Shown here in pieces: positions 19,737 to 58,685 of a stretch of DNA of 64,000 nt. A program made the translations under genes and the position numbers. Source of the stretch: Amphiscolops sp. MND2022 (taxonomy: Eukaryota); NCBI GenBank assembly GCA_964187785.1, contig OZ076409.1, forward strand, positions 9,550,001-9,614,000, in the 5' to 3' direction. Every line of letters starts with the position of its first letter. Position 1 is the first letter of the stretch. The notes under the pieces were generated by a model. It worked only from the letters and a program-made list of their open reading frames with translations. It was not told where the DNA came from and made no database searches.

Positions 19737-19752
19737 TAGAGACATCATTTTT

Positions 19753-32447: not shown

Positions 32448-32656
32448 TTTTTTTTGTTGTTTTCTCGTATTCTTAGTTAGTTAAGCTTAATGAGTTGACG
32501 AAGTATGAGTGTATTTCTTGCTTTACCTTACTTATCCTTATGTCATTAGTTCCGCTACCTGGTTACCTGTCTTTGGTACTGCCCCAATGTGATTTTATGT
32601 ATTGCACTGCAACTGATCAACACGCAGTCAACTTGCGCTCTTTCAGAGACTTGGTG

Positions 32657-37986: not shown

Positions 37987-38718
37987 TGTAACGATCACTT
38001 ATCGAGTCCGAGAATTCGAAATTTTTTTTGAAAATTTCGTTCAAGGGACTAGATGCCCTCCCCTGAAAAGTCATATTCCGCTGAAGGATACCGTGTCTTT
38101 ACCAAAGGACCTGTCCCCGAAATTGAAGAGGATTTGAGCGAGAGAAGCAGAAGAGACCCACTACGAACTAGACGACTACAGGAATCCGCAAAACCTGTCA
38201 GAAAAAGACTCAAATTTCGGCCGATACGGACTAAACTCTGTTCCCATCGGTGCTTTCTTTAGCAGATCATTACAATATGTTGTGACCACCAAAATGAGTC
38301 AACTAGCTTGAACAAGCATCCGTGCTTGTGTCCCAGGCTAATTGCTGCCCCAAAAATGCTAATTATGCAGTAAATTGCGTATTTTGTCGTGGTAATAGCT
38401 CGTGAGCTACTTATTTCGATTTCCTCTGTAGCTACAAGAGAACACGATTTTCCTTTTCCACCTCACCTGTTTTTAAAGGCTATCTAAGCGTTGGTTTCGA
38501 AGAAAAAGCGTAATTAGCGTTACTGATAGCAATTACAGACTGGATCAGGCCGGCGAGCACTTCACAAGAAGCGGAATCCTCCTCTGACGGGACAGTTTTT
38601 ACCCGAAGGAGGCAAAATGAGCTCATGGTCATGGGCGCCTGTCCCGGGCAAATACCCATATCATGTGTTCCTCTTACTCTCATGGTTACGGCGACAGTGG
38701 TGAGAGCCTGTCGTTACA
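37987..38718 (+). repeat. 3' LTR of element 1 (732 bp)
   Basis: Direct repeat of 19004-19736, preceded by purine-rich ggggagtga. Confidence 0.97.
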
Positions 38719-39913: not shown

Positions 39914-40564
39914 TCATTTCTTCACAAATAATAGCCGCAGCTCCAATCGGTTTTCTGTTCCTGAAAGCCCTTTGTCGTAAGCGCGAGAATTCGTGCTTGT
40001 GAATCCGTCTTTGAGACGGTCGTTACCTTGCTTACTCTTAGAATTGTTCTTAGGTTCTAAGTTTTGCAGCACTTCGGAATATCCTTCCGGTCTCTCGGCC
40101 GGAACGTTCCATCTCTCTTTGGTCAATTGTCCCGATCCGGCCATAACTGCATTTTGGATTTGAGGTAAAATTTGGCTACTAATTGCTTCATTTATGGCTC
40201 TTTGGATCTGAACACTGACGCTATTCATCATTTCATCCATCTCTCGAGATATACGAGAATTTAACTCACTCGACAATCTATTGATCTCAACACTTGAACA
40301 CTCTCTGATTGAATTATGGCCTAATTCGGTATTTGGACTAGGTCCATTATTTTCCGGGTTTGGGAACTCATTCTCATTTTCTTCTCCAAACTCATCTCCG
40401 AATAAGCTTTCTGGCCTACCGGTCTGATTACTATTCACACTTTCATTTCTCTCATTTCTATCAAAATGATTTCTTCCGAGCATAATATCTAAATTCTCAA
40501 TGTCTGATAGCATATCTGCTTCTCTAGATTTCCTTGTTTTCTTCTGTTTTCTAGTGGTAGGCAT
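39914..40564 (-). CDS. Gag N-terminus copy in the 3' LTR reading through into host flank (216 aa)
   Basis: Near-identical to ORF 54822 up to NSRAYD, then continues in flanking DNA; expression unknown. Confidence 0.45.
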   Translation of the reverse strand: MPTTRKQKKTRKSREADMLSDIENLDIMLGRNHFDRNERNESVNSNQTGRPESLFGDEFGEENENEFPNPENNGPSPNTELGHNSIRECSSVEINRLSSELNSRISREMDEMMNSVSVQIQRAINEAISSQILPQIQNAVMAGSGQLTKERWNVPAERPEGYSEVLQNLEPKNNSKSKQGNDRLKDGFTSTNSRAYDKGLSGTENRLELRLLFVKK

Positions 40565-41713
40565 TTAGGAAGAAAGTCCGAGGTTAATATTGAATTAGTT
40601 CGGAAAACTGGTAATATCAATGAACTGAACGTTGTGAAAAGAAAGCAACTTGTGTCCCCTCAGGAAGGGGGTGTATATATATATATACCTCCTGAGGCAT
40701 GACACTCACATTTTCCACATATTATTGAAATGTTTACATGTTCTAAAGGGTCGTGAAATTTTACGAGTATTAAAAAATAGCTATTGCATCAAAGTGATTC
40801 AGGAATTTAGGGTCGGAAAAATTCCTGAGGAATGCACTCAATTACATACTCATGATAGCTTCAAAGTACGGGGGACGGTTTAGTCCGCATTCCCGTAACA
40901 GTTAACATCAAAGCAAATATATGTTCAGACACTTCAAAGTAATATTTGTGTCAACAGGTATGTGAGGTATCTAAGGCACGTGCCTGCACACGCAAGCTAA
41001 TTCATCAAGTAGCAACTCCAATTACATGCACTAATAAAAGGTGGATGTGGCCCAATTCGGCCATTTGACAAAGGATCCATTCAATTAAAGCGACCGGTTT
41101 AGTCCACCGGACTATTATTTAGAGTTTATGACTGGTGGTCACAAATACATCAATTAGGTTTAAATAGGCCCATTAGCACCTTCTAAGTACAAATATAATC
41201 TTACATGACTTTAAATAACATGCATACTCAAATTAAACAATTACACAAGCTAATAGTTGGAATGGCCTAATCCGGCCATTTGCCTTTGGTCCGCTTACAA
41301 AATAAGGTATAGCGTCAAGTGGCCGTATACGGCCAAACAAATATGATAGTATAATGCACAGCAGGATAGAGCGTTCTGATTGGCTAATGAAATGAGCTCA
41401 AGTGACGTCTCCGGAATTAGAGTTTCGTTCACTTGAACTCGTTTCCTTTAAGCTTTACACTTGCCTTTACTATATTACGTCACTGCTAAACAATCCATCA
41501 TATAAGCATAATCATCACCGTTTGAATTCTAACACGAGTATTAATCAGACTAATATACAATCCGAATACATAATGAATATAATAAAACAACAGTGAGTTT
41601 TACTAAAAGTTTTGAATAATTCTCTTAAAATGTGGGCAAAGTACCTGGTACGGCTTCTTGCTCGTTAGTAGTCGTTGTGATCCGTGTCCCATCGCAAGCG
41701 GCAGCCTGCGACA
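39973..41713 (-). repeat. 3' LTR of element 2
   Basis: Matches 54231-55971 with about nine substitutions seen by eye. Confidence 0.97.
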
Positions 41714-42390
41714 CTGCGGGTGCTAAGAAAAGAAGACTTCCGGCGTTTAGACCATTTTCGTAGGCTTCCCTCCTCAAGTTCGTTATATAAGCTGGTTCAT
41801 TGCGCGGCGTTGATCTACTCATGTACCAATTCACTTTCTCTTGTTTAATTTCGTCCACTGATCTCCCACAGACCATGCATCCACGGCCCAACTGTTTGCT
41901 AAGATCCGAATACGGCTGTACTTGTTGGATGTGGTAAGATGCGTGGAAACTGGTGCTAACTGGTTGTTCCATGAATACGTCTTGGGACGGCCCTCTCTTT
42001 TGCAAAAGAGAGTTTGTGTTGCAAAGTTCTATCCGGGTTCTTTCTGCCTTTCTCATCGGTGCATACAGAAGTTTCTCGTCAAATTGTTTGAATCCCAATT
42101 TCGGAGTCGAAGGCGGCCGCATTTGAAGATTACTCGGTCCAGCTGCTGATTCTGTATCTTGCTCCTCCACAGTCATCTTGCGGCCAGCGATTAAAATTGG
42201 GCTTGACTTGACTTCCCTCTCGATTCTCTCTATGATAGCCTCGGTGTCCGTGGACCAATCGGAATCCCATGAGGTAGATGAGTTGTTCTCCTCTTCGTCA
42301 CTCGATAGGTAGATGACTGAATTTACGGAGGCTTCTGAGTCCGATTCTTCTAAGTCGAAAAGCTTTCTTGCTAAGTTAAATTTAGACATT
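41625..42390 (-). CDS. accessory ORF of element 2 overlapping the 3' LTR (acidic/Ser-rich N-terminus, CMVC motif)
   Basis: Open frame 41625-42467 with first ATG at 42390; its last ~30 codons lie inside the LTR. Confidence 0.65.
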
Positions 42391-43398
42391 ATTATCTTTT
42401 TAGCAATTTTGTTGATTCGTAGGGCGACTTGTTGCTTGCAGGATTCAAAGTTGAATGAGATTGTCAAAATTCCCTTCAGGCCAACTTAGGCTGTTTCCCC
42501 GGAGTTCCATTTCGGCGGGAGAAACCATGATCAATCGTCCTGATCCGTCGTAAACTTTCTAGAATGGAATTTCTTGGCGGCTTATTTACCCTTTGAAATT
42601 CAGAATGGTGCCCCCCTTTCTCACTCTCTTAAGTGAGTATGTGGAGGGGTGTTAAGTTGACAACAACAAATAACTCCACTCCAAGTGGGTAATCAACACC
42701 AAGCTTGATAGCAATTAACGGCACTTGTCGGAAGAAACTCACCGAAATGGCTTCATTCAATCAAATTTGAGCTTCGATAAATTTGAAAAAGAATAATAAA
42801 GATGGCGGAAAATAATAATTTTGAATAACTAAAATGGCGAAAATCTAACTAAGGTAACTAGGAAAACTGAACAAAACGGCAACATGAATAGGGGTAAACG
42901 GCCATAATCGGCCACTAATTGTAACAAGGTTGTAAATAGCGAGATACGTTCTGTACATTTTGCTGGCAGACTCCGTGTACAGATTTAAATATGTAGATAA
43001 TCAAATAATATTAGTCTGGTAAATCTTCAGCCACGAACTCCAACTTTCAATTCTTTACCTAATTCCAATTCCTCTATCTTTGCAATTTTCCTCTCCTGGG
43101 ATCCTCCGCTGTTACGCTTCACGAACTTTGTTGCTGTTTCCTGATCTTCCGTCGTCGCCGTATTCGGCCTTTCTCCACAGACTCTCCCCTGTAGATTTAC
43201 GTCTCATCTTCCAAAAAGGAGCAGCTTCATGGCTTCAAAATCAGGTTGGTCTGGATTTTCTTTTAATAGTCTGAACAATTTTGACTTGATCAGAGACAAA
43301 ACTTGTTCACAAACGCTTCCTGTTTCCGTTTTGTTTCACATGTTTCGACTAAATAGCCAAACTGAAAGACACTTCTAGAAGTTTTCTAACGCGGTAAA

Positions 43399-46300
43399 AT
43401 GGATTTCTTCCGAGGAAGCATACCGCCTAATTTTATCTCCTTCCATTTAGGGAATGAAAATACCGAGGAAGGACAAACACCAGCCTCTGATTCCCACATC
43501 CAGTCTACACCGAATGTGATGCCATCTCCACCGCCATTTCCTCCCCTCAGAGCCCCCATCTCTCCCAGCAGTACTGACAGTAACGTCGATGTCACTGCAT
43601 ATGCTGAAGAAAGAGTCAGGGTTTACGAGCGTATTCAGGGCTTGACTTCAACTCCGAATATCGACTTAGCCGACAAAGTTCCCAAGAAGGTTGGTGAGTC
43701 TGAAGAAGCCAAGGAAAGAGAGCCAACAGAGGTCAGGGAGGGAGCTACCAGTATCTCACCCATCAATCCGATCCAAACTGATCCGATTTCCCCAAACATT
43801 CGTGCCAGTACCCCAACTCCAGGGGCTTCCAATATCCAGCAGGAAATGGATTTGACCCAGTTGGAAAGTGGCCTAAAGGTTGCTACTTCCTCCCGAACCA
43901 CGTTACCGGAATTACTACCAGCCGGACATTCTAACAATGAAACGTCTGCGGTTTCTTTCCTCCAGCACGAGACTGACGATAGTTCGTCCTTTTGTGATGC
44001 CCCAGAGCTTCCCCAAGGAGTAACCAAGGTGCGGTTCCTAGACGGGGGAACCGAGACAGAAGAGACAGGGGATGGGACGAGTCAGCTTAGCTGTCCCGAG
44101 TTATACAGCTTTATCCCTGCACCCCACAACCCAACATCGAGTGAAGAAGACACTCTTACTCATAGTCCCAAAGACCCAACTGCTGAGTCTAGGCCCGGTC
44201 CCTCTGGTCCATCTCACCCTGAATTGAGGGAGTTATCTGGACGGAGTAGGGCTATTTTGAAACAATATTTTGATGAAGATGCCACAACCGTCTCTCTTCC
44301 TCTAGGCCACCGGACTGTCGCTTTCACGGAGCCACAGGTTTATCACCTCCTCCGAGTTCTTACCGACGAGACGTTGCAAATGTCTTATACGACCATGGAA
44401 AAGATGGTGTTAGGTGCAGTCAGAGGAGCCCCAGTTACGGCCAAGTCTCGTACGGACCATTTCAAAATCAGGCGCAGGGCACAAACTCCTCATCCACGAG
44501 ACCTCAGTGATAGCAGCGATGGGTCGCAGAGTTACGACGATTTTGGCCCAAGTACGGATTCTGCCGGTGACCCCAATACTGAGAGCGAAGATGGGGTTTT
44601 CGATTCCCCCAACGAGACTGACAGTTCCGCGGAAATGGCCCTAATTTCTCAGGCTTTCAAAGAGCCTAACTTGGTTGAACCTGATCCGACCAGCCAAAGA
44701 ATAGTAGATGTCGGCCGTCAGAATGAAGGTCATGAGTCGACTGGGCAATCAAGCTTGGATGCAACATTGTCAGAGTTGCGTCACCAGGAAGTACCGCGTC
44801 CAAGCGAGACTCGTGAAGAATCCAAAAAGAAGCGTCGCGGGCCCACTAGAGGGGTCCCCATGAAGGAGGAATTCTTTGCGAAGATTGGGTGGACCCGATC
44901 TTTCATCTCTGGACCAGCCGACCCATTACACATTCCCCATATGGTCTGGTGCCATATTTGTAAGAAGAATTTTTCCGTGAAGACCAAAGGCACTCTGGAG
45001 ATCCTACGACATCACCGGACAGAAAAACACTTGCGCAAGGACCAGAGATGGCGTTATGAGCACCTAAAAAGCGTCCATCCTGTCACTGGTAAGGTGCAAC
45101 ACCGGGTGAGGGGCAGAAACGGCAAAGTTCTGACCAAGATAGAGCTGGCTAAAGAACTCCCTCTGTTCATACATGCCGAGTTGGTTGATATCGGGGAACG
45201 TTTCCCCTTTTACGACGATTTCGTCAAAGGAACAGCGACCACCCTCGTAACTCCAGCGTCTCGTGCCAAGACTCAGATTCACCTCATCGCAGATTTTGTG
45301 CAGCATCAGGAAGACCTTTCTATTTTACGGCGGATGTGGTCACAGGTCGGCTCCCTAACCAACTACCAAGCCAGCTACTGCGATTTTGACTGGAGTGAAG
45401 ATAGAGTCTCGGTTGGTAGTTTTGTTTTTTTCTTTTTACTATCGAGGTGCACTGTAAATATCCGATTTAATATTCCTATTTTCTTTTAAGGCGATCTTCC
45501 AGCACATCTTCAACTGTGCCATGGAGGACATGGCAGAACAAATAGCGGCAACACAGTGCTTTGGGCTTGAGTACGAACGGGTTGGAGTCAACAAGCTCAT
45601 GTCTGTGAGATTTTGGAAGGGAGACTCACTGTGTAGAGTCTTCGTTTGTCGAAGTGGGCTTCCTTCCACCGACTTGACAGGAGAATTGGGGTCCCTTTCC
45701 AGATTTCTCTCGGTCGTGTCTACCAAGGTTGACATAGTTGCTTGTTCCGGCTGCCCCGTTGAGCTGATTTGTACTATCGACAGATGTGCACTATTTCCAC
45801 GAGCAGTACAGAGCTGTTTTCGATTCGAACATTTGGATTTGCAGACCATGATGCGCAAACCTACTTACAGTGTGTTCGGCAGAATCGACTTTTTCTCCGT
45901 GTTGAAGAGCTTACTGGTGTCCTTAGGATCTGCTGCCGATGAGGATTGGGCCATGCAATCACCCGAATTACTTCAAGTTAGTATCTTCCCTTTCACACGT
46001 CGATAGTGTTAACTAGTACACAGGACTCACTGTTTAATAGTGGTCCATTTTGGGCTATTTCCACTTGCAAACTGAATTTGCCTGATCTCCCTGGTCTCTG
46101 TCGCGACTTGTCAAAAAACTGGAAAGCAGTGCGTTCCTTTCTGACTGCTCACACTCCACATCAAGGCATGCAAGGGGTTCACAATCAGGTAAGGATTCTC
46201 TTCGGGCCTTTTGAATTTCAATGAGTTGGTTTCCAAGTCAATGGGTTAATGGACCGGCGATATCGGTTGCATGTGACTTACTTAGATCATGTTACAGGTT

Positions 46301-47686
46301 CAGAGCTTTGAATGGTCCCTCATCTGCGACACCTTCTTTGTTGTGAAATTGGAATTCTTCCAACGTATTATCAGTGACTGTAAGTATACGGACCTTTTGG
46401 GTTTATCACTGCTCGCTTCTAGCTTCATATCCCAAACTCTTGAATCCTGGTAGGGCAGTAAGCCCTGTTTCCTCGGTTGGTCATTTAGGCATACGGTTGG
46501 GTTTTTTCATGTGACCGGTTGTGTTTCAGACGTGTCCAGTTTCGTTGTCAACCTTCAAGGCAGACGAGATGCTACTTTCTTCCTTTGTGGGGAAGTCTGC
46601 CGATTCATCTCTAAGTTGTGCTCCCGTTGTTATCTGCCTGAAACGATCCCTGTCGAGAAAGATTGGTTCCTCTTGCTTGGTTTCGCCGTCGGTGAAGGCA
46701 AATTCCTTACTGAGGAGGACTTCCTGGTTCGACTGCGCTTGGTGAACAAAGTAGCGACTGCAAGTAAACAGAGTGCTGAAATCGTCCACTTGAATAAGAA
46801 GTCTGAGAAGGCTGCAATTGAGAAGACGGCGGATGAGGCAACTTCCAGTTTTGCCAGGGAAGGCCTCCACTTCGTACAGTATCTCTTGAAGGAGGTTCTC
46901 AATCAGGCTGGATTACGATCAGAGATTGTGAAGGGGTTGGCAGCTTTCGACCCTTTCATTTTATTCAAAAGACCTTCAGAAGTCGGCCTTCGTCACTTCG
47001 ATTTGTTATACGCTACCTTCCAACATCGGTCTTGGGTCTCATCTGCCAACGAGGATGCTTGCCGGGAGGAGTACATTGCCCTATTGGACCATCTTCGAGT
47101 GAGCTACCCCCCTGACTTCGATCTCCTAGAGAATTCCAAGGACCTCATCGACTTCATTATGGGACTAGAGTTCTTCCAGACTCATGAACATTTGCTCTAT
47201 TTGTTCAAATTGTGTTGTCTGTGTTTGACTAGTTCCAGTCCTCAGTATCCTCCTGTGTTATTTGGGAGTGTAGACACCACTGGATATCGTGGGCGCTTTA
47301 CTGATTTGGTCCTGCCTTGTCAAAGTTATCTTTCCTCCGTTCCTGATTCCATCTCTGGTTGCGTAACCGATGCCAATTTGGATAAATTTTCGCATCTCAG
47401 TGCCACCTTCGAACAGTCTGCCTTTGGTGCCGATTATGACCCGTGGACGTATGTTGATGTGTTTGGGCGATCCAAAATTTATAAGAGCTTATTGGCTTCA
47501 TATAAGCTCACTACATCCATCTCTGTTGCCCGCTCAGTTCGCTTGGAGGAGAGGAGTGTTTCATCCGTCCCCGATGAGTCTGCCCTGAAGATTCCTTCTA
47601 AGTTGCGAAGAAAAAGGCAGGGTAGCAACAGCTCAAGTCTTTCCTCAAGTTCTAAGAAGCCTGTCCAAGGTTCCTCTAAAGACTAG
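43399..47686 (+). CDS. antisense spliced accessory gene of element 2, ~1300 aa, BED-like zinc finger plus hAT-transposase-like region
   Basis: Exons 43399-45411, 45491-45976, 46024-46188, 46298-46379 and 46530-47686 join in frame through four GT-AG introns (3903 nt). Zinc finger WCHICKKNFSV..EILRHHRTEKH. Confidence 0.8.
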
Positions 47687-47901
47687 TATGTACATATGTA
47701 TTTATGTACGTTTTGAAACTGTAAACTTTTGTTCATTCTCTTAATGTTGTTGTATTTGTTTCTTTCTGATCCCATATTTATTCTCTTCTCCGAGGGGTCT
47801 TCTAGATGTCCCGCTATTTACTCAAAAGATACTAAAGGGGCCGAAAAAATGAAACTAAAAAATGAAGGAAAAGAGCTCCCATTTTCGGGAAAATTCAATT
47901 C

Positions 47902-50900
47902 TTAGTATCTGAAGTCTTCTGAGTAGTTCGGATTAGGGTTAGGCCTGAGATTATATTTCCCTCCTCTAGGGCTCAGACTTTCATTTCTAGCATCGTTTTC
48001 AGATATTTCGGGCACGATAATATCATCCCCCCTTTTCGGAGATTTTTGTGCATCGACTTCTGTTCTAAAATTTTCATCGGGTAAAATTTCTTTGTCTTTC
48101 AGGCTGTCTGCCGTATCCGGCAAAGATTTTTCACGGCTTTTTGGGGAAATGGCCGGATTCGGCCAATCAAGTTCTTCATTTCTAGACTGTTCATTAGCTT
48201 CATTTCTTGTAGTGACGTCATCAATTAATCGTTCATTCCGGCTATGCGACGCTCGGTCGGCAAGATTTGATTTATCACTCGTGATTACATAATCCACTTC
48301 ATTCTCGTGTGCGTCACTCGTATTCGGCTGCTCCGCATTCGGTTGTTCGCCATTCGGTACGCTAGTCGGAATAGTCTCGTTGTCTCGTGTAACTAGCTGC
48401 TCTCCAAAATCTGTTTCCCACGTTATGACGTATAGGTCATCTTGCGGAATGACAATTTCTTCGTCTGGCTGCAGACGTTGTTCTCGGAAATTGTCTTCAA
48501 GCGGTTGATTGGGAATAAATTTTTTAAGGCGAATGCGATGCAAAATTTGAGTTTTGTTCGTATTGATCCTTCGTACTATGTAGTTTTGATTTGGCAAAAC
48601 CTTTTGGACTACAAATGGTCCAACCCAGCGGTAATCGCGGAATGGAATTTTTGATCCTTGATGATCCGCTTTCGGCTGTAAAACGAAACAGTCATCATTC
48701 TCCTTCAATGGAGCAGCTTTTGCTTTGCGGTCGTAATATTCTTTGTACTTGATGTACGACTGCATAATGTTCTGTTTCGTTTTATCAATTAGGATTTTTG
48801 TCCGGTTTTGGATTTCTTCAGCAAATTCGGTTGTGGGGTTAATCTGCTCATTTGGATTATTTCCAAGTTTGTGATCCAAGATATTAAATGGAATTCTTCC
48901 ATGGAATACTCTCGTCGGTTCACAACCGATGCTGGCGTGATAGCTATTATTATGATTCAGTACTGCTAATGGCAAGTATTTGTGCCATTGTCGGCGATAT
49001 TCTCCACATGCCATTTTGAGATTTGTTTTCAATGAGGCATGAGTTCGCTCCAATTTTCCAATTGTCTGCGGGTGTTTCGTCGTGGCGCATTTGAGTGTAA
49101 TGCCCAAAATCTGCGTAATTTCCGCGATTATTGTAGAAGTAAATGCAGTACCTTTGTCGGTGATAAGAGTCGTTGGTAGATATGAGTGTTTAGTCATTAT
49201 ATCAATGAGCGCTTTTGCCACGTTGATAGCTGATGCGTCCGTGAGAGGGTAAGCAAATAAATATCTGGAGAAAACATCAATTGCCGTTAGGACATTTTCA
49301 TACCCTCCACTTGGGGGAAGATTCGGCAATAGGTCAATCTGCATGGCGTCTTCAGGTCCAAGGTCCCATTCGGGCAAGTTGAGCAGCTCAGGTGTGATCG
49401 TTGCGTTAGGGACTCTCTTGTCTCTGGCACATTGTTCACACCCTTCTACCCACTTTTTGACGTGTTTAGCCATGCTAGGGTAGTAATACCTCTGTCTAAT
49501 TTCCTGTAGCATTTTTGAAATCCCGGGGTGTTTATGCGCTGTCCCGTGAAGGGATTGAAGCAATTCCCGGAGTAAGTGTTGCGGGAGTAGAATTTGATGG
49601 TATTTAACATTCCCTGTTTCATCAAAATATTGCCTCGTCAGGATTTCGTCCTTGAGTACGATTCGTTCCAGATTATTTGCATAGTGTCTATATCGAGTAT
49701 CCTGTTGCAGTATGTTTTCTGAATAGTCTTCATGAAGGAGTTTTGCCTTCAATTGTTGTAATACTGTATCTTTGGATTGCTCAATAATGATCTGGTTCGT
49801 TTTCCTCAATCGGACTTGTATATCGGGGTGTTGCTTGACCAGATTTGTTGACAGAGTTTGTATAGTAATAGTGGGCTCATCAGTTGCTGGATTTTTCCTG
49901 ATTGCTTCTTTTCTTGCCCAATACTGTTCCTCTGTCTCATCGTCATCATTGGTGTAGAAGATTTGTTCTTCTTGCGACACCCCTGCGGATTGGACATTGA
50001 TTTCGATTGGTAGTGTTTGTACATCTTCACGAATTTTCATTACTAATTTGTCCTTCGGATCTGCTTCCAATCGGGACAAGTAGTCGGCAGCTGTATTTTG
50101 TGCCCCTGGGATGTGTGCTATGACAAAATTGAACTGAATGACATAATCACACGCGTTCCACAGGGCTGGGGGTATTATTTTTGTTTGGAAAAATCTCGTG
50201 ACTGCTTTGTTGTCGGTAAGGATGATGACTGGTTTCGGCGCACCCCAGAATATATGTCCGAATTCTTTAAATGCAAAATAAATTGCAAGGAATTCCTTTG
50301 CGTAAATTGACATCTTTATCTGTGCTGGGGTGAAAGTTTTCGATCCGTATGCGACTGGAGCATACGATTTCCTGAGTGACGTGAATTTCTGGTTCGGGTC
50401 ATCTTCAATTAAGACCGCGTATCCGGCTGCACCAAAACTTGCGTCAGTCATTAGTGCTATTTGCTTGTTCGGAATGGGTTGCTGTAGGGCTAAGTCGCAA
50501 CATTTGTCTAGCGCTCTATTGATTTCTTCGAATTGTTGGACTAATTCTTTCGATACTAGGACCTTTTCGTCACTTTTGAGCATCTTGTAGAATGGAGCAA
50601 GGCGTTCGGAGAGTCTTGGGACATAATTCCTGTAGTAGTTCAGGAATCCCAAGTAGCGCTGCAAAGCCTTTTTCGACTTTGGGAATTTGGTCTTTTCCAG
50701 AAAGTTTTGCACGTTCTGTTTCTGGGGTTTGACGCCTTGCGGGGTAATAGTCCGTCCGAGAAAATCAATTTCTTTTGCACCGAAGTGACATTTGTGCATT
50801 GTCAACTTAAGGCCTGCTTCCTGAATGCATTTGAATGTTGCTCTCAGGTTCGTCATGAGGTGGTCGACATCATTGGCTGCGATGCCGATATCGTCCACAT

Positions 50901-53103
50901 ACTGGGCGCACTGATCCGCTTTAATGACTTTGTCGAGGTATTCCCTCATGAAACTCGAGAATGCGGATAGTGACCGACTAAGGCCTTGTGCTAAGCGTCT
51001 GTAAGCGAATGTGCGACTGGCAAAATTGAAAGCCAGCATTTCGATTGAACGTTGGTCAGCCATTGGTAGGCAGTGGTATGCCTGCGAACAGTCTAATTTA
51101 CAGAACAGTTTTTTGCCTGCCAAGTGTTGGGCAGCATCAACCAGGGTGCTAACAGGGTGATTATTGTTTATATAATCATCCGAGATGAGGTTGTTGATTT
51201 TCCTCAAGTCAACCAGGAGTCGTAGCTTCCCATTTGGTTTCTTTTGGGCGAATATTGGGCTTGCATACTTTGAGAACGGCAGTCTAGTTATTATGCCATA
51301 TTTATGTAACATGGCTAATTCGACGAGGATGTCTTCCTTCAAATTGATAGGGGCCGGAAGACTTTGACTATAGGCTGGGGAATCATCTTTAGGTGTCAGT
51401 TTCACCTTGAAGTCTTCGTTCATGCCTATATCAAATCGGTGTCGTGCAAAGATGTCATGGAATTCCACTAACAATTCCTCTATTTTCTCCTTCTCTTCAG
51501 GAGTAAGGGTGTAATCTTTCCAATCGAAATTTTTTAAGAACTTTGTACGTGATTCTTCATCTTGAGTAGGGTCAAGTGTCTCGAGGTCTTGTAAGGCCTG
51601 TAATTCCTGGAGGATTCGTTTTTGTATCGGCGTATGTTCCTCAGGATTTCCAGGATTTTCTGTGGTTGGGAACCAGTAATTTTCAGAGTTTTGTGGATTT
51701 CTATTAGTTTTGATGAGACTGCTGACATAGTGGGCTGCCTGCTCTTGATCATTCTGTAAGAGATGCCAGGTTGATGCCGGGTCCACCGGTTTGACATATT
51801 TCATTTGTTCTGGCGTCATAACAGAGAAATTGGCAATATGGAGTCCCTTTTTGAGTTTATAGGTGTGGTCTGTGAAATTATTCACAGGTATCGATATGTT
51901 GCCATCATTCAGAGTGACCAAAGCTGGGCAAAATGTGATGTCGCCTTCTTCATGTAGAAGGTCGCTCGGTTGTAAAATCCCGGTGACAGCATTCTCAGGG
52001 TACAGTAGGGAATTTGTCCTAATTAGGACTCTGTCATTTGGAGGAATGGTTATCTCAATGGGATTGAGAATTGGTTCTAGTACATTTGAATGTTTATGAT
52101 CAGCTGTTTTGAGCTGCATTGAAAAGAATGGGAAGTTTAGTATTCCTTGTCTCATGTCCAGAACTGTATGATTTCGTTGAAGGAACATTAGTCCAATGAT
52201 CGGACCTGTCAGGTGTTCCATGACTATGAAAATCTCGTGAAACTCGATGTCACCAACTTCAAATTTGAGCTCTATGGTACTCTTGGGAGTTTCCAATTGC
52301 CCATTAGCGACCATTATTTGGAAATTCGGAGGCGGGCCTTCCCGGATAACAGATTGTGGAGATAAAAGTCGGATTTTCCGGAGGTCCATTTCAGGAATTG
52401 CACTGGACAGCGCTCCAGTGTCGATGAGTCCATCAATGGTCAATTCCCCAAAGTCCATTGGGAAATACAACATGCGTTTCTTGCATTTGAGATTGATGTT
52501 GGTTGACAAAGGTATACAGTCTGGTTCGCCGTCCCTTGTGATTAGGACATTTTGGAATTGTTTCTCATCTAGTAGTGATTGCTGTATGGGTTCAGTATTG
52601 TTGTCATGGTTCTCGGTCCCCAATGGGTTTGGGAACACTGGGTGGTTCGTGCCATCATTCATTTGCCAGTTTTCAATTAATGCTCTGGTCTTCTTATTGT
52701 GGGTGATGGGAGGATTCTCGTGGACTGATTGATTGTAATGTTCGATATCATCTAGAACGTACTGGAATTGCAGTAAATCTTGGTTGTAAATCTCGGTGTC
52801 CCAATAGGGATCTCTGCCGTAGTCTGGGTCGATGTACGTTGGATTGTAATTATCTACCAGGGGAATGGGCCTGAACCGGGTAGTGAAGGTAGTGGTATAG
52901 TCAGGGTCCCAAACAGGAATTGGTTTTTGGAATAAATGAGTGTTGTTATAGGTGATGGTGGTAGCCTTGTCCATCTGTTGCTGCCAGACAACAGAGGGAT
53001 AGCCCATCAATTGCTGATTGTATTGGTGGAAAGTTTGCGTTGGAGGATCCGACCTGATGTATTGGCGGACGGATATCAGTTCGTTGTATTGGAGTCGTGG
53101 CAA
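47902..53103 (-). CDS. pol: Pol of element 2 (protease, RT, RNase H, integrase), intact 1733-aa frame
   Basis: LIDTGA; LAQG..YVDD; TDAS; H..H..CEQC with QID/TDKG/LERTH; WVGPF. Confidence 0.96.
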   Translation of the reverse strand: MPRLQYNELISVRQYIRSDPPTQTFHQYNQQLMGYPSVVWQQQMDKATTITYNNTHLFQKPIPVWDPDYTTTFTTRFRPIPLVDNYNPTYIDPDYGRDPYWDTEIYNQDLLQFQYVLDDIEHYNQSVHENPPITHNKKTRALIENWQMNDGTNHPVFPNPLGTENHDNNTEPIQQSLLDEKQFQNVLITRDGEPDCIPLSTNINLKCKKRMLYFPMDFGELTIDGLIDTGALSSAIPEMDLRKIRLLSPQSVIREGPPPNFQIMVANGQLETPKSTIELKFEVGDIEFHEIFIVMEHLTGPIIGLMFLQRNHTVLDMRQGILNFPFFSMQLKTADHKHSNVLEPILNPIEITIPPNDRVLIRTNSLLYPENAVTGILQPSDLLHEEGDITFCPALVTLNDGNISIPVNNFTDHTYKLKKGLHIANFSVMTPEQMKYVKPVDPASTWHLLQNDQEQAAHYVSSLIKTNRNPQNSENYWFPTTENPGNPEEHTPIQKRILQELQALQDLETLDPTQDEESRTKFLKNFDWKDYTLTPEEKEKIEELLVEFHDIFARHRFDIGMNEDFKVKLTPKDDSPAYSQSLPAPINLKEDILVELAMLHKYGIITRLPFSKYASPIFAQKKPNGKLRLLVDLRKINNLISDDYINNNHPVSTLVDAAQHLAGKKLFCKLDCSQAYHCLPMADQRSIEMLAFNFASRTFAYRRLAQGLSRSLSAFSSFMREYLDKVIKADQCAQYVDDIGIAANDVDHLMTNLRATFKCIQEAGLKLTMHKCHFGAKEIDFLGRTITPQGVKPQKQNVQNFLEKTKFPKSKKALQRYLGFLNYYRNYVPRLSERLAPFYKMLKSDEKVLVSKELVQQFEEINRALDKCCDLALQQPIPNKQIALMTDASFGAAGYAVLIEDDPNQKFTSLRKSYAPVAYGSKTFTPAQIKMSIYAKEFLAIYFAFKEFGHIFWGAPKPVIILTDNKAVTRFFQTKIIPPALWNACDYVIQFNFVIAHIPGAQNTAADYLSRLEADPKDKLVMKIREDVQTLPIEINVQSAGVSQEEQIFYTNDDDETEEQYWARKEAIRKNPATDEPTITIQTLSTNLVKQHPDIQVRLRKTNQIIIEQSKDTVLQQLKAKLLHEDYSENILQQDTRYRHYANNLERIVLKDEILTRQYFDETGNVKYHQILLPQHLLRELLQSLHGTAHKHPGISKMLQEIRQRYYYPSMAKHVKKWVEGCEQCARDKRVPNATITPELLNLPEWDLGPEDAMQIDLLPNLPPSGGYENVLTAIDVFSRYLFAYPLTDASAINVAKALIDIMTKHSYLPTTLITDKGTAFTSTIIAEITQILGITLKCATTKHPQTIGKLERTHASLKTNLKMACGEYRRQWHKYLPLAVLNHNNSYHASIGCEPTRVFHGRIPFNILDHKLGNNPNEQINPTTEFAEEIQNRTKILIDKTKQNIMQSYIKYKEYYDRKAKAAPLKENDDCFVLQPKADHQGSKIPFRDYRWVGPFVVQKVLPNQNYIVRRINTNKTQILHRIRLKKFIPNQPLEDNFREQRLQPDEEIVIPQDDLYVITWETDFGEQLVTRDNETIPTSVPNGEQPNAEQPNTSDAHENEVDYVITSDKSNLADRASHSRNERLIDDVTTRNEANEQSRNEELDWPNPAISPKSREKSLPDTADSLKDKEILPDENFRTEVDAQKSPKRGDDIIVPEISENDARNESLSPRGGKYNLRPNPNPNYSEDFRY

Positions 53104-53105
53104 AG

Positions 53106-54822
53106 TTAGTTTTTTGACTCATCATTAGAAGATGAGGATTGTGAGTTTGAAGATGTTGACTTGTTTTGCGGTTTCTGCGCCTTTGAATTGGGCTTTCCGT
53201 CATTGGCGTCATCTGGTCTGGTGCGTTTGGGTTTGAGATGCGCACCGGCGCCTTGCCAACATCTTTCTTCGGGGTGGTTCTTTTTACCACAAGTACCACA
53301 CTCCGGATACGTCTTTTTCTGAGTCTGTTTGCCTTGTTGGGCATCTTTTTCCTTTTTCTTTTTGAGTTTTTCGCAGTCCTTTACCATGTGGCCCTTTTCC
53401 TTGCAATAATTGCAGGTAATGTCTGACATTTGCCCAGTGGACAGAGGAGTTTTGGGCTTAGTCGATGAGGAGGTCATTGTTGCTATTGGTAGATCGTCTG
53501 ACTCCTCGAGGGCGTTAAGCTCTAATTCTCTCTCCAAATGAGCAACTATCTCATCGTATGAGCCATTTTCTAATCTGGCCATGTTAACAGACCGCTTCAG
53601 TTTCGGTGGCAGTTTTGCGTAAAGCAAACTGTCAATCATCTTTTGTGCTTGATCCCCGAATGCTTTTTCTGCCCCTTGATTTAGTTCTTCAAGGAAATCT
53701 GGCAGTTTCATCGTGTTGGGATCAAAGACTAGACGGTGCCATTTATGTTTGGCAGTTGCCTGTGATTCGGGTTTGACGTATTTTCGTCTGAATATTATCA
53801 ATACGTCTTCTAAAGTCTGTCTATTGCTCGAGCTGATGTTCCGGAAGGTTTGGAGAGCATTCTTCCTCAGCAGTGAGTGGAAGTGATTGATTTTCATCTG
53901 TTCCGTCATTTCCGGTTGCATCTTGATCATCGTGTGGAATAGGTCCTCAAACAGCTCGAATTTTTCACTCTTGCCATCAAAGTCATTGTGTTTGAATTGA
54001 CTGGGCGTATAGTGAGTTGTTGGGCTGTCGGCCTATTCTGCATCGTTGTCAAGACATCTGCTAGTCGAGTAATAGGTCAGTTTGAGCAGCCTGAGCATTT
54101 CTCTCTTGCGCTGGGATCGTCGTGTCAAGGTTAATATCCTCATAGGACCTGTCGAGATGGTTTCTGGATGAGATTCGTCCCGTGAGAAACTCAGGAACTT
54201 CGATTGGAGATTCGTTTTCTCCTGTCACCATGTCGTAAGCGCGAGAATTCGTGCTTGTGAATCCGTCTTTGAGACGGTCGTTACCTTGCTTACTCTTAGA
54301 ATTGTTCCTAGGTTCTAAGTTTTGCAGCACTTCGGAATATCCTTCCGGTCTCTCGGCCGGAACGTTCCATCTCTCTTTGGTCAATTGTCCCGATCCGGCC
54401 ATAACTGCATTTTGGATTTGAGGTAAAATTTGGCTACTAATGGCTTCATTTATGGCTCTTTGGATCTGAACACTGACGCTATTCATCATTTCATCCATCT
54501 CTCGAGATATACGAGAATTTAACTCACTCGACAATCTATTGATCTCAACACTTGAACACTCTCTGATTGAATTATGGCCTAATTCGGTATTTGGACTAGG
54601 TCCATTATTTTCCGGGTTTGGGAACTCATTCTCATTTTCTTCTCCCAACTCATCTCCGAATAAGCTTTCTGGCCTACCGGTCCGATTACTATTCACACTT
54701 TCATTTCTCTCATTTCTATCAAAATGATTTCTTCCGAGCATAATATCTAAATTCTCAATGTCTGATAGCATATCTGCTTCTCTAGATTTCCTTGTTTTCT
54801 TCTGTTTTCTAGTGGTAGGCAT
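53106..54822 (-). CDS. gag: Gag of element 2 (two apparent 1-nt homopolymer deletions near 54075 and 53980)
   Basis: Restoring one C and one T joins ORFs 54061-54822 and 53106-53930 via DPITRLADVLTTMQNRPTAQQLTIRPVNSNTMTFDGKSEKFELFEDLF. Zinc knuckles CNYCKEKGHMVKDC and CGTCGKKNHPEERC. Confidence 0.88.
53109..53115 (-). promoter_or_regulatory. -1 ribosomal frameshift slippery site A AAA AAC at the gag/pol junction
   Basis: Heptamer sits directly before the gag TAA and pol is in the -1 frame. Confidence 0.8.
54213..54230 (-). promoter_or_regulatory. primer-binding site of element 2, embedded in gag coding sequence
   Basis: TGGTGACAGGAG.. directly after the LTR-terminal CA; cognate tRNA not assigned. 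Confidence 0.65.
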
Positions 54823-55971
54823 TTAGGAAGAAAGTCCGAGGTTAATATTGAATTAGTTCGGAAAACTGGTAATATCAATGAACTGAACGTTGTGAAAAGA
54901 AAGCAACTTGTGTCCCCTCAGGAAGGGGGTGTATATATATATATACCTCCTGAGGCATGACACTCACATTTTCCACATATTATTGAAATGTTTACATGTT
55001 CTAAAGGGTCGTGAAATTTTACGAGTATTAAAAAATAGCTATTGCATCAAAGTGATTCATGAATTTAGGGTCGGAAAAATTCCTGAGGAATGCACTCAAT
55101 TACATACTCATGATAGCTTCAAAGTACGGGGGACGGTTTAGTCCGCATTCCCGTAACAGTTAACATCAAAGCAAATATATGTTCAGACACTTCAAAGTAA
55201 TATTTGTGTCAACAGGTATGTGAGGTATCTAAGGCACGTGCCTGCACACGCAAGCTAATTCATCAAGTAGCAACTCCAATTACATGCACTAATAAAAGGT
55301 GGATGTGGCCCAATTCGGCCATTTGACAAAGGATCCAGCCAATTAAAGCGACCGGTTTAGTCCACCGGACTATTATTTAGAGTTTATGACTGGTGGTCAC
55401 AAATACATCAATTAGGTTTAAATAGGCCCATTAGCACCTTCTAAGTACAAATATAATCTTACATGACTTTAAATAACATGCATACTCAAATTAAACAATT
55501 AAACAAGCTAATAGTTGGAATGGCCTAATCCGGCCATTTGCCTTTGGTCCGCTTACAAAATAAGGTATAGCGTCAAGTGGCCGTATACGGCCAAACAAAT
55601 ATGATAGTATAATGCACAGCAGGATAGAGCGTTCTGATTGGCTAATGAAATGAGCTCAAGTGACGTCTCCGGAATTAGAGTTTCGTTCACTTGAACTCGT
55701 TTCCTTTAAGCTTTACACTTGCCTTTACTATATTACGTCACTGCTAAACAATCCATCATATAAGCATAATCATCACCGTTTGAATTCTAACACGAGTATT
55801 AATCAGACTAATATACAATCCGAATACATAATGAATATAATAGAACAACAGTGAGTTTTACTAAAAGTTTTGAATAATTCTCTTAAAATGTGGGCAAAGT
55901 ACCTGGTACGGCTTCTTGCTCGTTAGTAGTCGTTGTGATCCGTGTCCCATCGCAAGCGGCAGCCTGCGACA
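54231..55971 (-). repeat. 5' LTR of element 2, containing the gag start codon (54822)
   Basis: Followed immediately on the minus strand by TGGTGACAGG (PBS-like). Confidence 0.97.
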
Positions 55972-56071
55972 CCCTTTACCTAATTTTTCAAATGCATATT
56001 AGTTAGGTCGCGAGTTGGCGCCACTTGTTGGGATGAAAGCGTCACCCCGGCGGCGCCGGGCCTTACAAATA

Positions 56072-58685
<2,614 letters not shown>

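What the first reader, a model, noticed from the sequence alone, without database searches (positions are those of the whole stretch)
43399..47686. Antisense, four-intron, ~1300-aa zinc-finger/hAT-like gene carried inside a retrotransposon
Seen: the four + strand ORF pieces and an 82-nt exon join exactly in frame through canonical GT-AG introns of 79, 47, 109 and 150 nt. The protein has a disordered acidic N-terminus, a CxxC..H.....H BED-like finger (44941-45030) and a C-terminal region whose pattern recalls hAT transposase/ZNF862-type proteins. Established: introns antisense to the genomic RNA are not spliced from it and so survive retrotransposition. Inference: a DNA-transposase-derived protein was co-opted by a class I element, possibly as a DNA-binding regulator or anti-silencing factor. 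I see no TIRs or TSD around it, and I could not identify an intact DDE triad.
Basis: partly seen in the sequence, partly recalled or inferred. Interest (0 to 1): 0.9.

Follow-up and report, generated by a model that had tools for sequence, protein, structure and literature searches.

The report
Spliced antisense gene in animal retrotransposon
A young jumping gene of the gypsy type in an animal genome carries, backwards between its polymerase gene and its right-hand repeat, a real intron-bearing gene for a large zinc-finger protein that the whole element lineage has kept under strong selection, but its proposed descent from a hAT DNA transposase is not shown.

Summary
The observation largely holds. 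A 16-kb Ty3/gypsy-type LTR retrotransposon lies on the minus strand. Its LTRs are 39973-41713 and 54231-55971 (99.5% identical), with a 5-bp target duplication. Between pol and the 3' LTR it carries a plus-strand multi-exon gene (43399-47686).

- Splice sites are conserved.
- Exons have no indels at about 30% divergence, while introns are scrambled.
- Intron 3 is exactly absent in six copies.
- dN/dS is 0.03-0.11.

The family's acceptor lies 30 nt further on, at 46052-46053, and is not AG in this copy.

All 12 other copies I examined have the gene tail-to-tail with the same pol, including lineages only about 33% identical in exon 5. There are no terminal inverted repeats. It is therefore an ancestral part of the element, not a nested transposon.

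Comparable antisense genes are described in plant and fungal gypsy elements, and this scan noted fungal cases before. My literature searches found no animal case.

The parts
39968..39972 (.). Target-site duplication, left copy (CCCTT)
   Evidence: Read directly from the sequence. The same 5 bases follow the other LTR at 55972-55976.
39973..41713 (-). 3' LTR of the element (TG..CA ends)
   Evidence: 1742-bp direct repeat, 99.48% identical to 54231-55972. Boundaries were set from the flanks.
41625..42485 (-). ORFx, a second accessory reading frame. It is on the element's sense strand, head-to-head with the antisense gene, and runs 90 nt into the 3' LTR.
   Evidence: 286-codon stop-to-stop frame. 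No Pfam family. 137 matches in the same genome at 61-100% identity, most without stops.
42486..43398 (.). 0.9-kb spacer between the diverging ORFx and antisense gene. Presumed site of the antisense gene's promoter.
   Evidence: Inferred from position only. No promoter test was done.
43399..45411 (+). Exon 1 (671 codons). The first ~470 codons are low-complexity, acidic and Ser/Pro/Thr-rich. A highly conserved block follows.
   Evidence: ORF. Composition. 264 homologous ORFs, mostly 660-730 aa and starting at the same Met. The N-terminus is only 37-50% identical between subfamilies.
44890..45126 (+). Nearly invariant block aa 498-576 holding the CxxC-x16-HH-x4-H zinc finger (C518, C521, H538, H539, H544)
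   Evidence: Each of these residues is kept in at least 122 of 124-126 homologues. Best Pfam family is zf-BED at E 0.35, below its cut-off.
45412..45490 (+). Intron 1 (79 nt, GT..AG, phase 0)
   Evidence: GT..AG is kept in 27 of 29 close and 10 of 10 distant copies. Identity falls to 46-51% with 17-50 gap positions where the flanking exons are 68-74% identical with at most 1 (exon 2) or 3-21 (exon-1 tail). P0298 has a 25-aa unalignable insert exactly at this junction, which is an in-frame intron read through.
45491..45976 (+). Exon 2 (162 codons)
   Evidence: Exactly 486 nt in 9 of 10 distant copies despite 68-92% nucleotide identity. dN/dS is 0.035-0.073 where dS is not saturated.
45977..46053 (+). 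Intron 2 as the family has it (77 nt). In this copy the acceptor dinucleotide at 46052-46053 is GG, not AG.
   Evidence: The acceptor is AG in 28 of 29 close copies and 10 of 10 distant ones. Protein homology between subfamilies resumes at aa 844, which is nt 46054.
46054..46188 (+). Exon 3 (45 codons in the family model; 55 if 46024 is used in this copy)
46189..46297 (+). Intron 3 (109 nt, GTAAGG..ACAG), present or absent between lineages
   Evidence: Missing in 6 of 10 distant copies, where at most 3 aligned nt remain between the two exons, which abut. Present with GT..AG in the other 4 and in 29 of 29 close copies.
46298..46379 (+). Exon 4 (82 nt, ends in phase 1)
   Evidence: 77-95% nucleotide identity across copies. 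Its peptide appears in P0016, P0060 and P0071, which read through intron 4.
46380..46529 (+). Intron 4 (150 nt, GTAAGT..TTCAG)
   Evidence: GT..AG in 29 of 29 close and 10 of 10 distant copies. Length varies 139-157 nt and identity is 44-53% in distant copies. Homology of 28 database ORFs begins at this acceptor.
46530..47686 (+). Exon 5 (385 codons plus stop). All-alpha domain followed by a Ser-rich tail with a basic KRKR cluster.
   Evidence: - 211 homologues.
- 652 clusters at 50% identity with E <= 0.001.
- 107 scored matches of 7849 candidates in the own genome, 87 without stops.
- 1154 nt with no gap positions in 9 of 10 distant copies.
- dN/dS 0.07-0.10.
- AlphaFold2 model with mean pLDDT 81.7, helices only.
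47687..47901 (.). 215-nt spacer between the converging stop codons of the antisense gene and pol
   Evidence: AATAAA is on the minus strand at 47782. No AATAAA or ATTAAA occurs on the plus strand in 47600-48300.
47902..53118 (-). pol (1738 codons): protease, reverse transcriptase, RNase H, integrase
   Evidence: Pfam hits: RVT_1 at 6.9e-23, RT_RNaseH, Integrase_H2C2, rve, gag-asp_proteas.
53106..54032 (-). gag (308 codons; DUF1759 and a CCHC knuckle)
   Evidence: Pfam DUF1759 at 3.5e-06, over its cut-off. zf-CCHC at 0.0014, below its cut-off.
54061..54822 (-). Upstream reading frame that starts inside the 5' LTR and runs across the primer-binding site
   Evidence: Its LTR-borne part recurs at 39914-40564.
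54231..55971 (-). 5' LTR
55972..55976 (.). Target-site duplication, right copy (CCCTT)

Best explanation
The stretch is an accessory gene that belongs to a clade of Ty3/gypsy LTR retrotransposons of an animal genome. It sits between pol and the 3' LTR on the strand opposite gag-pol.

Shown: it is split by four spliceosomal-type introns, and the element lineage has kept it under strong purifying selection through deep divergence.

From established knowledge: introns on the antisense strand are not recognised in the element's genomic RNA, so they are copied at each retrotransposition. Retrotransposition reporter cassettes rely on the same principle.

Inferred:
- The gene is transcribed from its own promoter in the 0.9-kb spacer it shares head-to-head with ORFx.
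- The transcript is spliced and translated into a protein of about 1290 aa. This has a fast-evolving disordered N-terminus, a nearly invariant CxxC..HH..H zinc finger, about 700 residues of mostly helical domain, and a basic tail that looks like a nuclear import signal.
- The protein acts in trans in the nucleus by binding nucleic acid through the finger, to the benefit of the element.
- Most likely it controls the element's own transcription or silencing (about 35%).
- Next most likely it helps the pre-integration complex enter the nucleus or choose targets (about 25%).

Its ultimate origin is unresolved. It may derive from a hAT-type transposase, a host gene or something else. In this particular copy the family's intron-2 acceptor is not AG, so the copy either uses an in-frame cryptic acceptor 30 nt upstream or is mis-spliced.
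For: Element:
- LTR pair at 99.5% identity; target duplication, TG..CA ends and primer-binding site; gag and pol domains.

Gene reality:
- An in-frame 1300-codon join.
- Splice dinucleotides conserved in 27-29 of 29 close copies and 9-10 of 10 distant copies per intron.
- Exons 2 and 5 keep their exact length (486 and 1154 nt) in 9 of 10 distant copies at 68-74% nucleotide identity. Introns fall to 40-53% identity with many indels.
- Intron 3 is absent in 6 of 10 distant copies, with the two exons abutting.
- Database ORFs that read through introns 1 and 4 show unalignable inserts exactly at the predicted junctions.

Selection:
- dN/dS is 0.028-0.114 in all 12 window-to-copy comparisons with unsaturated dS (four copies across three segments). 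It is 0.044-0.197 in the five unsaturated copy-to-copy comparisons.
- 87 of 107 scored exon-5 matches carry no stop.
- 16 of 29 close and 3 of 10 distant copies are open over the whole part examined.

Integral to the element:
- 10 of 10 fetched copies, plus 2 of 2 from lineages only 33-34% identical in exon 5, lie tail-to-tail with a related gypsy pol.

Finger:
- aa 498-576 are kept in at least 114 of about 125 homologues at every listed position, and the C and H ligands in at least 122.

Fold:
- The confident AlphaFold2 model of exon 5 is all-helical.
Against: - No transcript evidence could be had, so transcription, splicing and translation are inferred from conservation alone.
- The window copy lacks the conserved intron-2 acceptor, so this individual copy may not make the normal protein.
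- 13 of 29 close copies and 7 of 10 distant ones carry frameshifts or stops in the part examined. The gene is therefore not needed in cis by every copy.
- Nothing tested here bears on the function. No family, fold or partner was identified with significance.
- No plus-strand AATAAA or ATTAAA lies within 600 nt after the stop codon.
Confidence: 0.8

Rival explanations
1. The protein is a very diverged, catalytically dead hAT-type transposase (BED finger, RNase H-like core, helical insertion domain, C-terminal dimerisation region). An ancestor of this gypsy clade captured it and kept it as a DNA-binding factor.
For: - The domain order fits: a finger sits ahead of a large, mostly helical body.
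- zf-BED is the best of 24736 Pfam families for the finger segment, at E 0.35 and 11.4 bits.
- An HMM of six hAT transposases of this genome finds its best stretch finger-on-finger, with a best score of 1.5 bits.
- 21 of the 30 nearest language-model clusters belong to the set carrying Dimer_Tnp_hAT, and others to FAM200-GTF2IRD2-like, scoring 0.91-0.92.
- hAT elements abound in this genome: 150 matches over the cut-off.
Against: - Pfam finds no Dimer_Tnp_hAT, DUF659, DUF4371 or zf-BED at E <= 0.1 in any piece, in 29 and 58 homologues, or in P0298.
- hhalign of the exon-5 profile and of the aa 468-1300 composite against the hAT alignment gives probability 0.2% and 0.6%. The colinear alternative alignment scores 17.3, against 17.2 for the reversed control.
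- PDB profile searches do not find Hermes. Foldseek finds nothing.
- No invariant acidic triad stands out. The A2 alignment keeps only D140 and D204 of exon 5 at 90% or more.
- Exon 2 has no informative neighbours.

Confidence: 0.35
2. A hAT (or other) DNA transposon inserted into this one retrotransposon copy. The plus-strand gene is its transposase and has nothing to do with the element.
For: Only the general frequency of nested insertions, and the abundance of hAT elements in the genome.
Against: - The same gene sits in the same place and orientation next to pol in 12 of 12 other copies, including lineages about 33% identical in exon 5.
- The longest inverted match between 42486-43398 and 47687-47901 is 15 nt with up to 2 mismatches. 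That lies inside the range of 30 shuffles, 12-16 nt.
- No inverted repeat of 40 nt or more occurs in 36-64 kb.
Confidence: 0.01
3. The gene is a host cellular gene transduced by the element. It is carried as a passenger without a role in the element's life cycle.
For: - Transduction of host genes by LTR elements is documented, as discussed in passages of PMC7264820 that I read.
- The protein has no recognisable transposon domain.
Against: - Passenger genes are expected in one or a few copies (PMC7264820, abstract). This one is in thousands of candidates: 7849 for exon 5 and 5565 for a distant relative. It has diverged together with pol down to 24-34% identity while keeping dN/dS of 0.03-0.11.
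- No protein longer than 672 aa matching exon 5 was found among longer database proteins, and all of the best 150 of 652 clusters are 418 aa or shorter. No free-standing spliced host gene was therefore seen. This is weak evidence, because those databases hold ORF calls.
Confidence: 0.08
4. The frames are chance open stretches on the reverse strand of retrotransposon sequence, and the introns are an artefact of picking GT and AG to join them.
For: GT and AG are frequent.
Against: - There is no sense-strand gene opposite 43.4-47.7 kb whose codon structure could hold a reverse frame open.
- Synonymous change far exceeds non-synonymous change.
- Exon lengths are fixed while intron lengths drift.
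- Intron 3 is missing in six copies, with its flanking exons abutting.
- A confident fold is predicted from the family alignment.
Confidence: 0.01

Closest known systems
Antisense additional ORFs between pol and 3' LTR (aORF-3R) of plant Ty3/gypsy elements: maize Grande gene23, rice RIRE2, Silene Retand ORF4 with the TRP28 / Transposase_28 domain, Phaseolus PvRetro13 (PMC7264820 and PMC11963269; abstracts and matched passages read)
   Same: - Same position and orientation in a Ty3/gypsy element.
- Present in most or all copies of a lineage.
- Unknown function, with nuclear or DNA-binding hints.
- Presumed to have its own promoter.
   Different: - The host here is an animal.
- No sequence relation was found: Pfam reported no Transposase_28 or any other family on the four ORF pieces.
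- The gene is far larger (about 1290 aa) and split by four introns. The word 'intron' does not occur in the main text of either paper.
- A second, sense-strand accessory frame (ORFx) lies beside it.
brtn, the additional antisense gene of Boty-like gypsy elements of Botrytis cinerea (Zhao et al. 2011, Virology 417:248). I saw it only as a reference and in passages of PMC8365987. Similar fungal intron-bearing antisense genes were noted earlier in this scan.
   Same: An antisense gene behind pol in gypsy elements. The fungal cases noted by this scan are also intron-bearing and often encode cysteine-rich, zinc-binding proteins.
   Different: The fungal genes are small, a few hundred residues in those notes, and have Zn-cluster or DUF3716-like domains. 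This one is an animal element with one C2H2/BED-like finger and a large helical body. The earlier notes are unchecked AI notes, and I did not read the 2011 paper.
Antisense genes of complex retroviruses, such as HBZ of HTLV-1 (named in passages of PMC11963269 as antisense genes of HTLV/STLV; that HBZ has a spliced form is from my own recall)
   Same: A retroelement expresses a nuclear regulatory protein from the minus strand, from a promoter of its own. An intron can survive there because it is antisense to the genomic RNA.
   Different: HBZ starts in the 3' LTR and is a small bZIP protein. The gene here is internal, about 1290 aa, has four introns and is unrelated in sequence. The element has no env.
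hAT transposases and their domesticated derivatives (Hermes, ZBED, ZNF862, FAM200, GTF2IRD2)
   Same: - A zinc finger of BED-like spacing lies ahead of a long, mostly helical region.
   Different: - No significant sequence, profile or Foldseek match.
- No terminal inverted repeats.
- No recognisable DDE residues.
- The gene moves as part of a retrotransposon.

Membership tests
Ty3/gypsy LTR retrotransposon (the carrier) | Two long terminal direct repeats with TG..CA ends, flanked by a short target-site duplication | tested here: met
   1742-bp repeats at 99.48% identity. TG..CA ends and a CCCTT duplication.
Ty3/gypsy LTR retrotransposon (the carrier) | gag, then pol with the order protease, reverse transcriptase, RNase H, integrase | tested here: met
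   Pfam places gag-asp_proteas at aa 227-315, RVT_1 at 626-791, RT_RNaseH at 883-981, Integrase_H2C2 at 1179-1234 and rve at 1255-1350 of the pol frame. gag has DUF1759.
Antisense additional ORF between pol and 3' LTR (aORF-3R kind) | Coding region between pol and the 3' LTR, antisense to gag-pol, present in most copies of the lineage | tested here: met
   12 of 12 other copies have the same layout. dN/dS is 0.03-0.11.
Antisense additional ORF between pol and 3' LTR (aORF-3R kind) | Sequence homology to the described plant aORF domain (Transposase_28, PF04195) | tested here: not met
   Pfam scans of the four ORF pieces at E <= 0.1, and of 58 exon-5 and 4 exon-1 homologues at E <= 1, list no PF04195.
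hAT transposase superfamily | C-terminal hAT dimerisation region (Pfam PF05699) scoring over the family cut-off | tested here: not met
   0 of 29 and 0 of 58 exon-5 homologues match at E <= 1. Six true hAT transposases of the same genome score 54.6-62.3 bits.
hAT transposase superfamily | RNase H-like catalytic core with a DDE triad interrupted by a helical insertion domain | tested here: inconclusive
hAT transposase superfamily | N-terminal BED-type zinc finger | tested here: inconclusive
   The CxxC-x16-HH-x4-H ligands are conserved in at least 122 of 124-126 homologues. zf-BED is the top Pfam family but at E 0.35 and 11.4 bits, against a cut-off of 20.6.
hAT transposase superfamily | Short terminal inverted repeats and an 8-bp target duplication around the gene | tested here: not met
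   The longest inverted match between the two flanks is 15 nt with up to 2 mismatches. 30 shuffles give 12-16 nt. No inverted repeat of 40 nt or more.
Spliceosomal multi-exon gene | Introns with GT..AG ends at conserved positions, evolving faster than the exons and free of length constraint | tested here: met
Spliceosomal multi-exon gene | Junction-spanning transcripts | not testable with these tools
   No RNA run was listed for this stretch.

The most novel reading that the evidence does not exclude
An ancient clade of animal gypsy retrotransposons has carried two accessory genes through its whole radiation. One is a four-intron antisense gene descended from a hAT-type DNA transposase that lost catalysis but kept an almost invariant BED-like finger.

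On this reading the element uses the protein as its own sequence-specific DNA-binding factor, to steer integration or to hold off host silencing. The disordered N-terminus evolves fast, and the 3' module recombines among pol lineages, both driven by conflict with the host. This would be a class I element that domesticated a class II enzyme, the reverse of the usual host domestication. It would also show that retrotransposons can maintain and even lose spliceosomal introns on their antisense strand.
Probability: 0.25. Interest if true: 0.8.

Novelty: new variant of a known kind. Interest (0 to 1): 0.6.

Why it matters
Antisense accessory genes of LTR retrotransposons are described in plants and fungi, and their function is still unknown. 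My six full-text searches turned up no animal example. That does not show that none is in print.

This family is large: thousands of candidates in one 1.07-Gb genome. It is deeply diversified, strongly constrained, and has an almost invariant zinc finger. That gives a tractable handle for testing what such genes do: localisation, DNA-binding specificity and interaction partners.

It also shows natural intron maintenance on the antisense strand of a retroelement, together with one intron that is present in some lineages and absent in others. This bears on how introns are lost or gained through reverse transcription.

For genome annotation, about 4 kb of each of these elements is a real protein-coding gene that standard transposon libraries would mask as non-coding internal sequence.

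Tried and rejected
Expression
- No RNA holder was listed for 43399-47686.

Structure of exon 5
- The first AlphaFold2 run, with 29 close homologues, gave pLDDT 46 and no usable Foldseek match.
- A second run with 58 diverse homologues gave pLDDT 81.7.
- Foldseek against PDB had a best E of 2.8.
- BFVD viral structures had a best E of 0.3.

Sequence and profile searches
- Language-model search with exon 2: best score 0.83, peptidase M16 clusters, not informative.
- Exon-5 search among longer proteins (673-2000 aa): none.
- PDB sequence or profile searches with exon 5, A1, A2 and P0298: only chance rows, E 0.34-0.95 or none.
- hhalign with low mact, alternative alignments and global mode: a colinear alignment of 532 columns scored 17.3, against 17.2 for the reversed template, so I rejected it.
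- hmmsearch in both directions between the family and six hAT transposases: nothing beyond the finger, at about 1.5 bits.

An early misreading, corrected
- I first read P0298 (844 aa) as a lineage lacking intron 1. The alignment shows instead a 25-aa insert at the junction, which is an in-frame intron read through by the ORF caller.
The stop lies inside the family's real intron 2.

Other negatives
- The other retrotransposon of the window (element B) shares only pol-to-pol similarity. Its extra ORFs are unrelated to the antisense protein or ORFx, with best E 0.12.
- A look-up of earlier scan notes by place and by sequence found nothing for this genome.

Full report
**What is in the window.** A self-comparison finds two 1742-bp direct repeats, 39973-41714 and 54231-55972, that are 99.48% identical. 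Their flanks show TG..CA ends and a 5-bp duplication, CCCTT, on both sides. A TGG-starting primer-binding site lies just inside the upstream repeat on the minus strand.

Between the repeats the minus strand carries these frames:
- one that starts inside the LTR (54822-54061);
- gag (54032-53106; DUF1759 and a CCHC knuckle);
- a 1738-codon pol (53118-47902) with protease, reverse transcriptase, RNase H and integrase in the Ty3/gypsy order.

This is a young, essentially complete 16-kb LTR retrotransposon. The genome it lies in has 1.07 Gb in 1929 contigs and encodes rhodopsin-type receptors (75 matches at E <= 1e-10). The host is therefore an animal.

**Checking the observation.** The four plus-strand frames and the 82-nt piece exist as described. 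Joining 43399-45411, 45491-45976, 46024-46188, 46298-46379 and 46530-47686 gives 3903 nt with no internal stop. The four gaps of 79, 47, 109 and 150 nt all begin GT and end AG, three of them with good donor contexts and pyrimidine-rich acceptors.

**Is it more than chance?** The last exon has 107 scored matches, out of 7849 first-look candidates, in the same genome at 74-100% identity. Of these, 87 have no stop. I fetched 30 loci around the best matches (one is the window itself) and 10 longer stretches around more distant ones. One of the 10, L039, is the same copy as L024.

Exons versus introns in the 10 distant copies:
- Exon 2 keeps exactly 486 nt in 9 copies, and exon 5 exactly 1154 nt in 9, at 68-93% nucleotide identity.
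- In the six most distant copies (L031-L035, L040) the introns drop to 40-53% identity with up to 50 gap positions. Lengths are 75-129 nt for intron 1 and 139-157 nt for intron 4.

Splice dinucleotides:
- Intron 1 is GT..AG in 27 of 29 close and 10 of 10 distant copies.
- Intron 4 is GT..AG in 29 of 29 close and 10 of 10 distant copies.
- Intron 3 is GT..AG in 29 of 29 close copies and in 4 distant ones.
- In the other 6 distant copies intron 3 is gone, with exon 3 abutting exon 4.

Database ORF calls that happen to read through an intron show the same junctions:
- P0298 has a 25-residue unalignable insert exactly between the last residue of exon 1 and the first of exon 2.
- P0016, P0060 and P0071 carry the exon-4 peptide ahead of an unalignable stretch.

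Selection (Nei-Gojobori estimates):
- dN/dS is 0.028-0.114 in all 12 comparisons with the window copy where dS is not saturated.
- It is 0.044-0.197 in the five unsaturated comparisons among other copies.

The gene is real and has been selected as a protein.

**One correction: intron 2.** The alignments show that this AG, preceded by a T-run, is the conserved acceptor. It is AG in 28 of 29 close copies and in all 10 distant ones. Protein similarity between subfamilies resumes at the next codon, aa 844.

The family's intron 2 is thus 77 nt (45977-46053) and its protein about 1290 aa. The window copy reads GG at the acceptor. Whether the splicing machinery uses it is unknown.

With the 77-nt intron, 16 of 29 close copies and 3 of 10 distant ones are open over the whole part examined. 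The others carry frameshifts or stops.

**Part of the element, or a nested transposon?**
- All 10 distant copies have the gene tail-to-tail with a pol 85-95% identical in protein over most of its length.
- A database relative only 24% identical to the window's exon 5 (P0263) has 121 matches in this same genome.
- Two of those loci, 33-34% identical to the window's exon 5, again lie tail-to-tail with a gypsy pol 63-76% identical over most of its length. That makes 12 of 12.
- The flanks of the gene share no inverted repeat beyond chance: 15 nt with up to 2 mismatches, against 12-16 nt in shuffles.
- The region holds no inverted repeat of 40 nt or more.

The gene is ancestral to a whole clade of elements.

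**A second conserved accessory frame.** ORFx (41625-42485) lies on the element's sense strand, head-to-head with the antisense gene, and runs into the 3' LTR. It has 137 matches at 61-100% identity.

**What the protein looks like.**
- The first ~470 residues are acidic and Ser/Pro/Thr/Gly-rich. They diverge fast, to 37-50% identity between subfamilies.
- Residues 498-576 are almost invariant in about 125 homologues that differ by 30-50% elsewhere. This block holds C518, C521, H538, H539 and H544 in a CxxC-x16-HH-x4-H arrangement.
- The rest is conserved and, for exon 5, predicted with confidence (mean pLDDT 81.7, residues 1-230 above 90) to be entirely helical.
- It ends in a disordered Ser-rich tail with a KRKR cluster.

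**The hAT question.**

Negative results:
- Pfam on the four ORF pieces, on 29 and 58 exon-5 homologues and on four exon-1 homologues.
- PDB sequence and profile searches.
- Foldseek against PDB and BFVD.

As a direct test I took six intact hAT transposase frames from this genome. Pfam validates them (Dimer_Tnp_hAT in all six, zf-BED or DUF659 in five), and I aligned them. hhalign of the exon-5 profile against this alignment gave probability 0.2%. A 400-row composite alignment of residues 468-1300 gave 0.6%. The best colinear alternative scored 17.3, against 17.2 for the reversed template.

Three weak results point the other way:
- zf-BED is the top Pfam family for the finger segment, at E 0.35. 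An HMM of the six transposases finds its best stretch finger-on-finger, with a best score of 1.5 bits.
- The nearest language-model clusters carry Dimer_Tnp_hAT or FAM200-GTF2IRD2-like domains, scoring 0.91-0.92, with recognition and shared features below the tool's trust lines.

None of these is significant alone. Their agreement is why I keep hAT ancestry at about one in three rather than dismissing it. The middle of the protein (residues 546-915) is where an RNase H-like core would be.

**How it most likely works.**

Shown:
- The gene is selected as a protein.
- It travels with the element.
- It keeps introns.

Established knowledge: an intron in antisense orientation is not spliced out of the genomic RNA, so it is inherited through reverse transcription.

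Inferred:
- Transcription starts from a promoter in the 0.9-kb spacer shared with ORFx.
- The protein is nuclear (basic tail) and binds nucleic acid (invariant finger).
- It acts in trans for the element. Action in trans fits the many copies with a broken gene.
- I favour control of the element's own transcription or silencing, then a role in nuclear entry or target choice. These follow what has been proposed for plant aORFs and retroviral antisense genes (passages of PMC7264820 and PMC11963269). Nothing here tests these roles.

**Module history.**
- Between the window copy and six distant copies, pol differs by dS 0.38-0.68 (about 90% nucleotide identity). The antisense exons are saturated (pS 0.71-0.93, about 69% identity).
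- For four other copies the two genes diverge in step: dS 0.19-0.77 across the pol segments of each copy, against 0.30-0.82 for exon 5.
- ORFx of one of the six is also only 63% identical in protein.

This suggests recombination between element lineages with a breakpoint near the converging stop codons. I did not build trees to test it.

**Comparison with what is known.**
- Antisense ORFs between pol and the 3' LTR are described in plant gypsy elements: Grande, RIRE2, Retand with its TRP28 domain, and PvRetro13. Their function is unknown (PMC7264820 and PMC11963269; abstracts and matched passages read).
- A fungal case, brtn of Boty-like elements, is cited in PMC8365987 (passages and reference list read; the 2011 paper itself was not seen).
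- Earlier notes of this scan report several intron-bearing antisense genes in fungal gypsy elements. They are unchecked, and I used them as a lead to brtn.
- Six full-text searches and look-ups in two annelid retrotransposon papers turned up no animal example. That is not proof that none is in print.

I therefore class this as a new variant of a known kind. It has the same architecture as the plant and fungal cases, but a new host kingdom, an unrelated and much larger protein, four introns with one present or absent between lineages, and a companion sense-strand ORF.

**Verdict.**
- The reading as an element-borne antisense gene is supported.
- The hAT origin is not demonstrated.
- Interest is moderate to high for transposon biology.

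Noticed in passing
window 19003-38718: A second, unrelated LTR retrotransposon on the plus strand. Its 734-bp LTRs (19003-19736 and 37986-38718) are 99.86% identical. It has an 825-codon gag-like frame, a 1726-codon gypsy-type pol, and three further sense-strand frames of 796, 223 and 1354 codons (30057-37059) with no Pfam family. They show no similarity to the antisense protein or ORFx.
   Followed up: partly
window 41625-42485 (minus strand): ORFx is a 286-codon sense-strand frame between the antisense gene and the 3' LTR, overlapping the LTR by 90 nt. It is conserved in 137 matches at 61-100% identity, has no Pfam family, and has an acidic Ser-rich N-terminus. How it would be expressed is unknown; a spliced subgenomic RNA is one possibility.
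   Followed up: partly
window 47902-53118 versus 43399-47686, compared with L031-L035 and L040: pol and the antisense gene have discordant divergence. pol dS is 0.38-0.68, while synonymous sites of the antisense exons are saturated. In L036-L039 the two diverge in step. This suggests recombination between element lineages near the converging stop codons.
   Followed up: partly
window 46189-46297: Intron 3 is present in the window's subfamily and its nearer relatives and missing in six more distant copies, where its flanking exons abut. I did not determine whether this is intron loss (for example through a reverse-transcribed spliced antisense RNA) or intron gain.
   Followed up: partly
window 54061-54822 and 39914-40564 (minus strand): A reading frame begins about 1150 nt inside the LTR. 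In the 5' copy it continues across the LTR end and the primer-binding site to just before gag. No Pfam family was found.
   Followed up: no
window 8039-11489, with older relatives at 5110-7146: A satellite array with self-matches at offsets of 89 and 178 bases. Identity is 91-97% within the array, and about 84% to a second block upstream.
   Followed up: no
window 56072-58447: A 1.19-kb tandem duplication (56072-57257 and 57256-58447), 99.3% identical. Each unit ends in a (TC)n run, and a long (TC)n tract follows at 58406-58690.
   Followed up: no
own genome, e.g. L041-L046: The genome holds many hAT transposons: 150 scored matches to Dimer_Tnp_hAT over the cut-off, out of 2215 candidates. Several have intact 496-697-codon transposase frames with zf-BED and DUF659.
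   Followed up: partly
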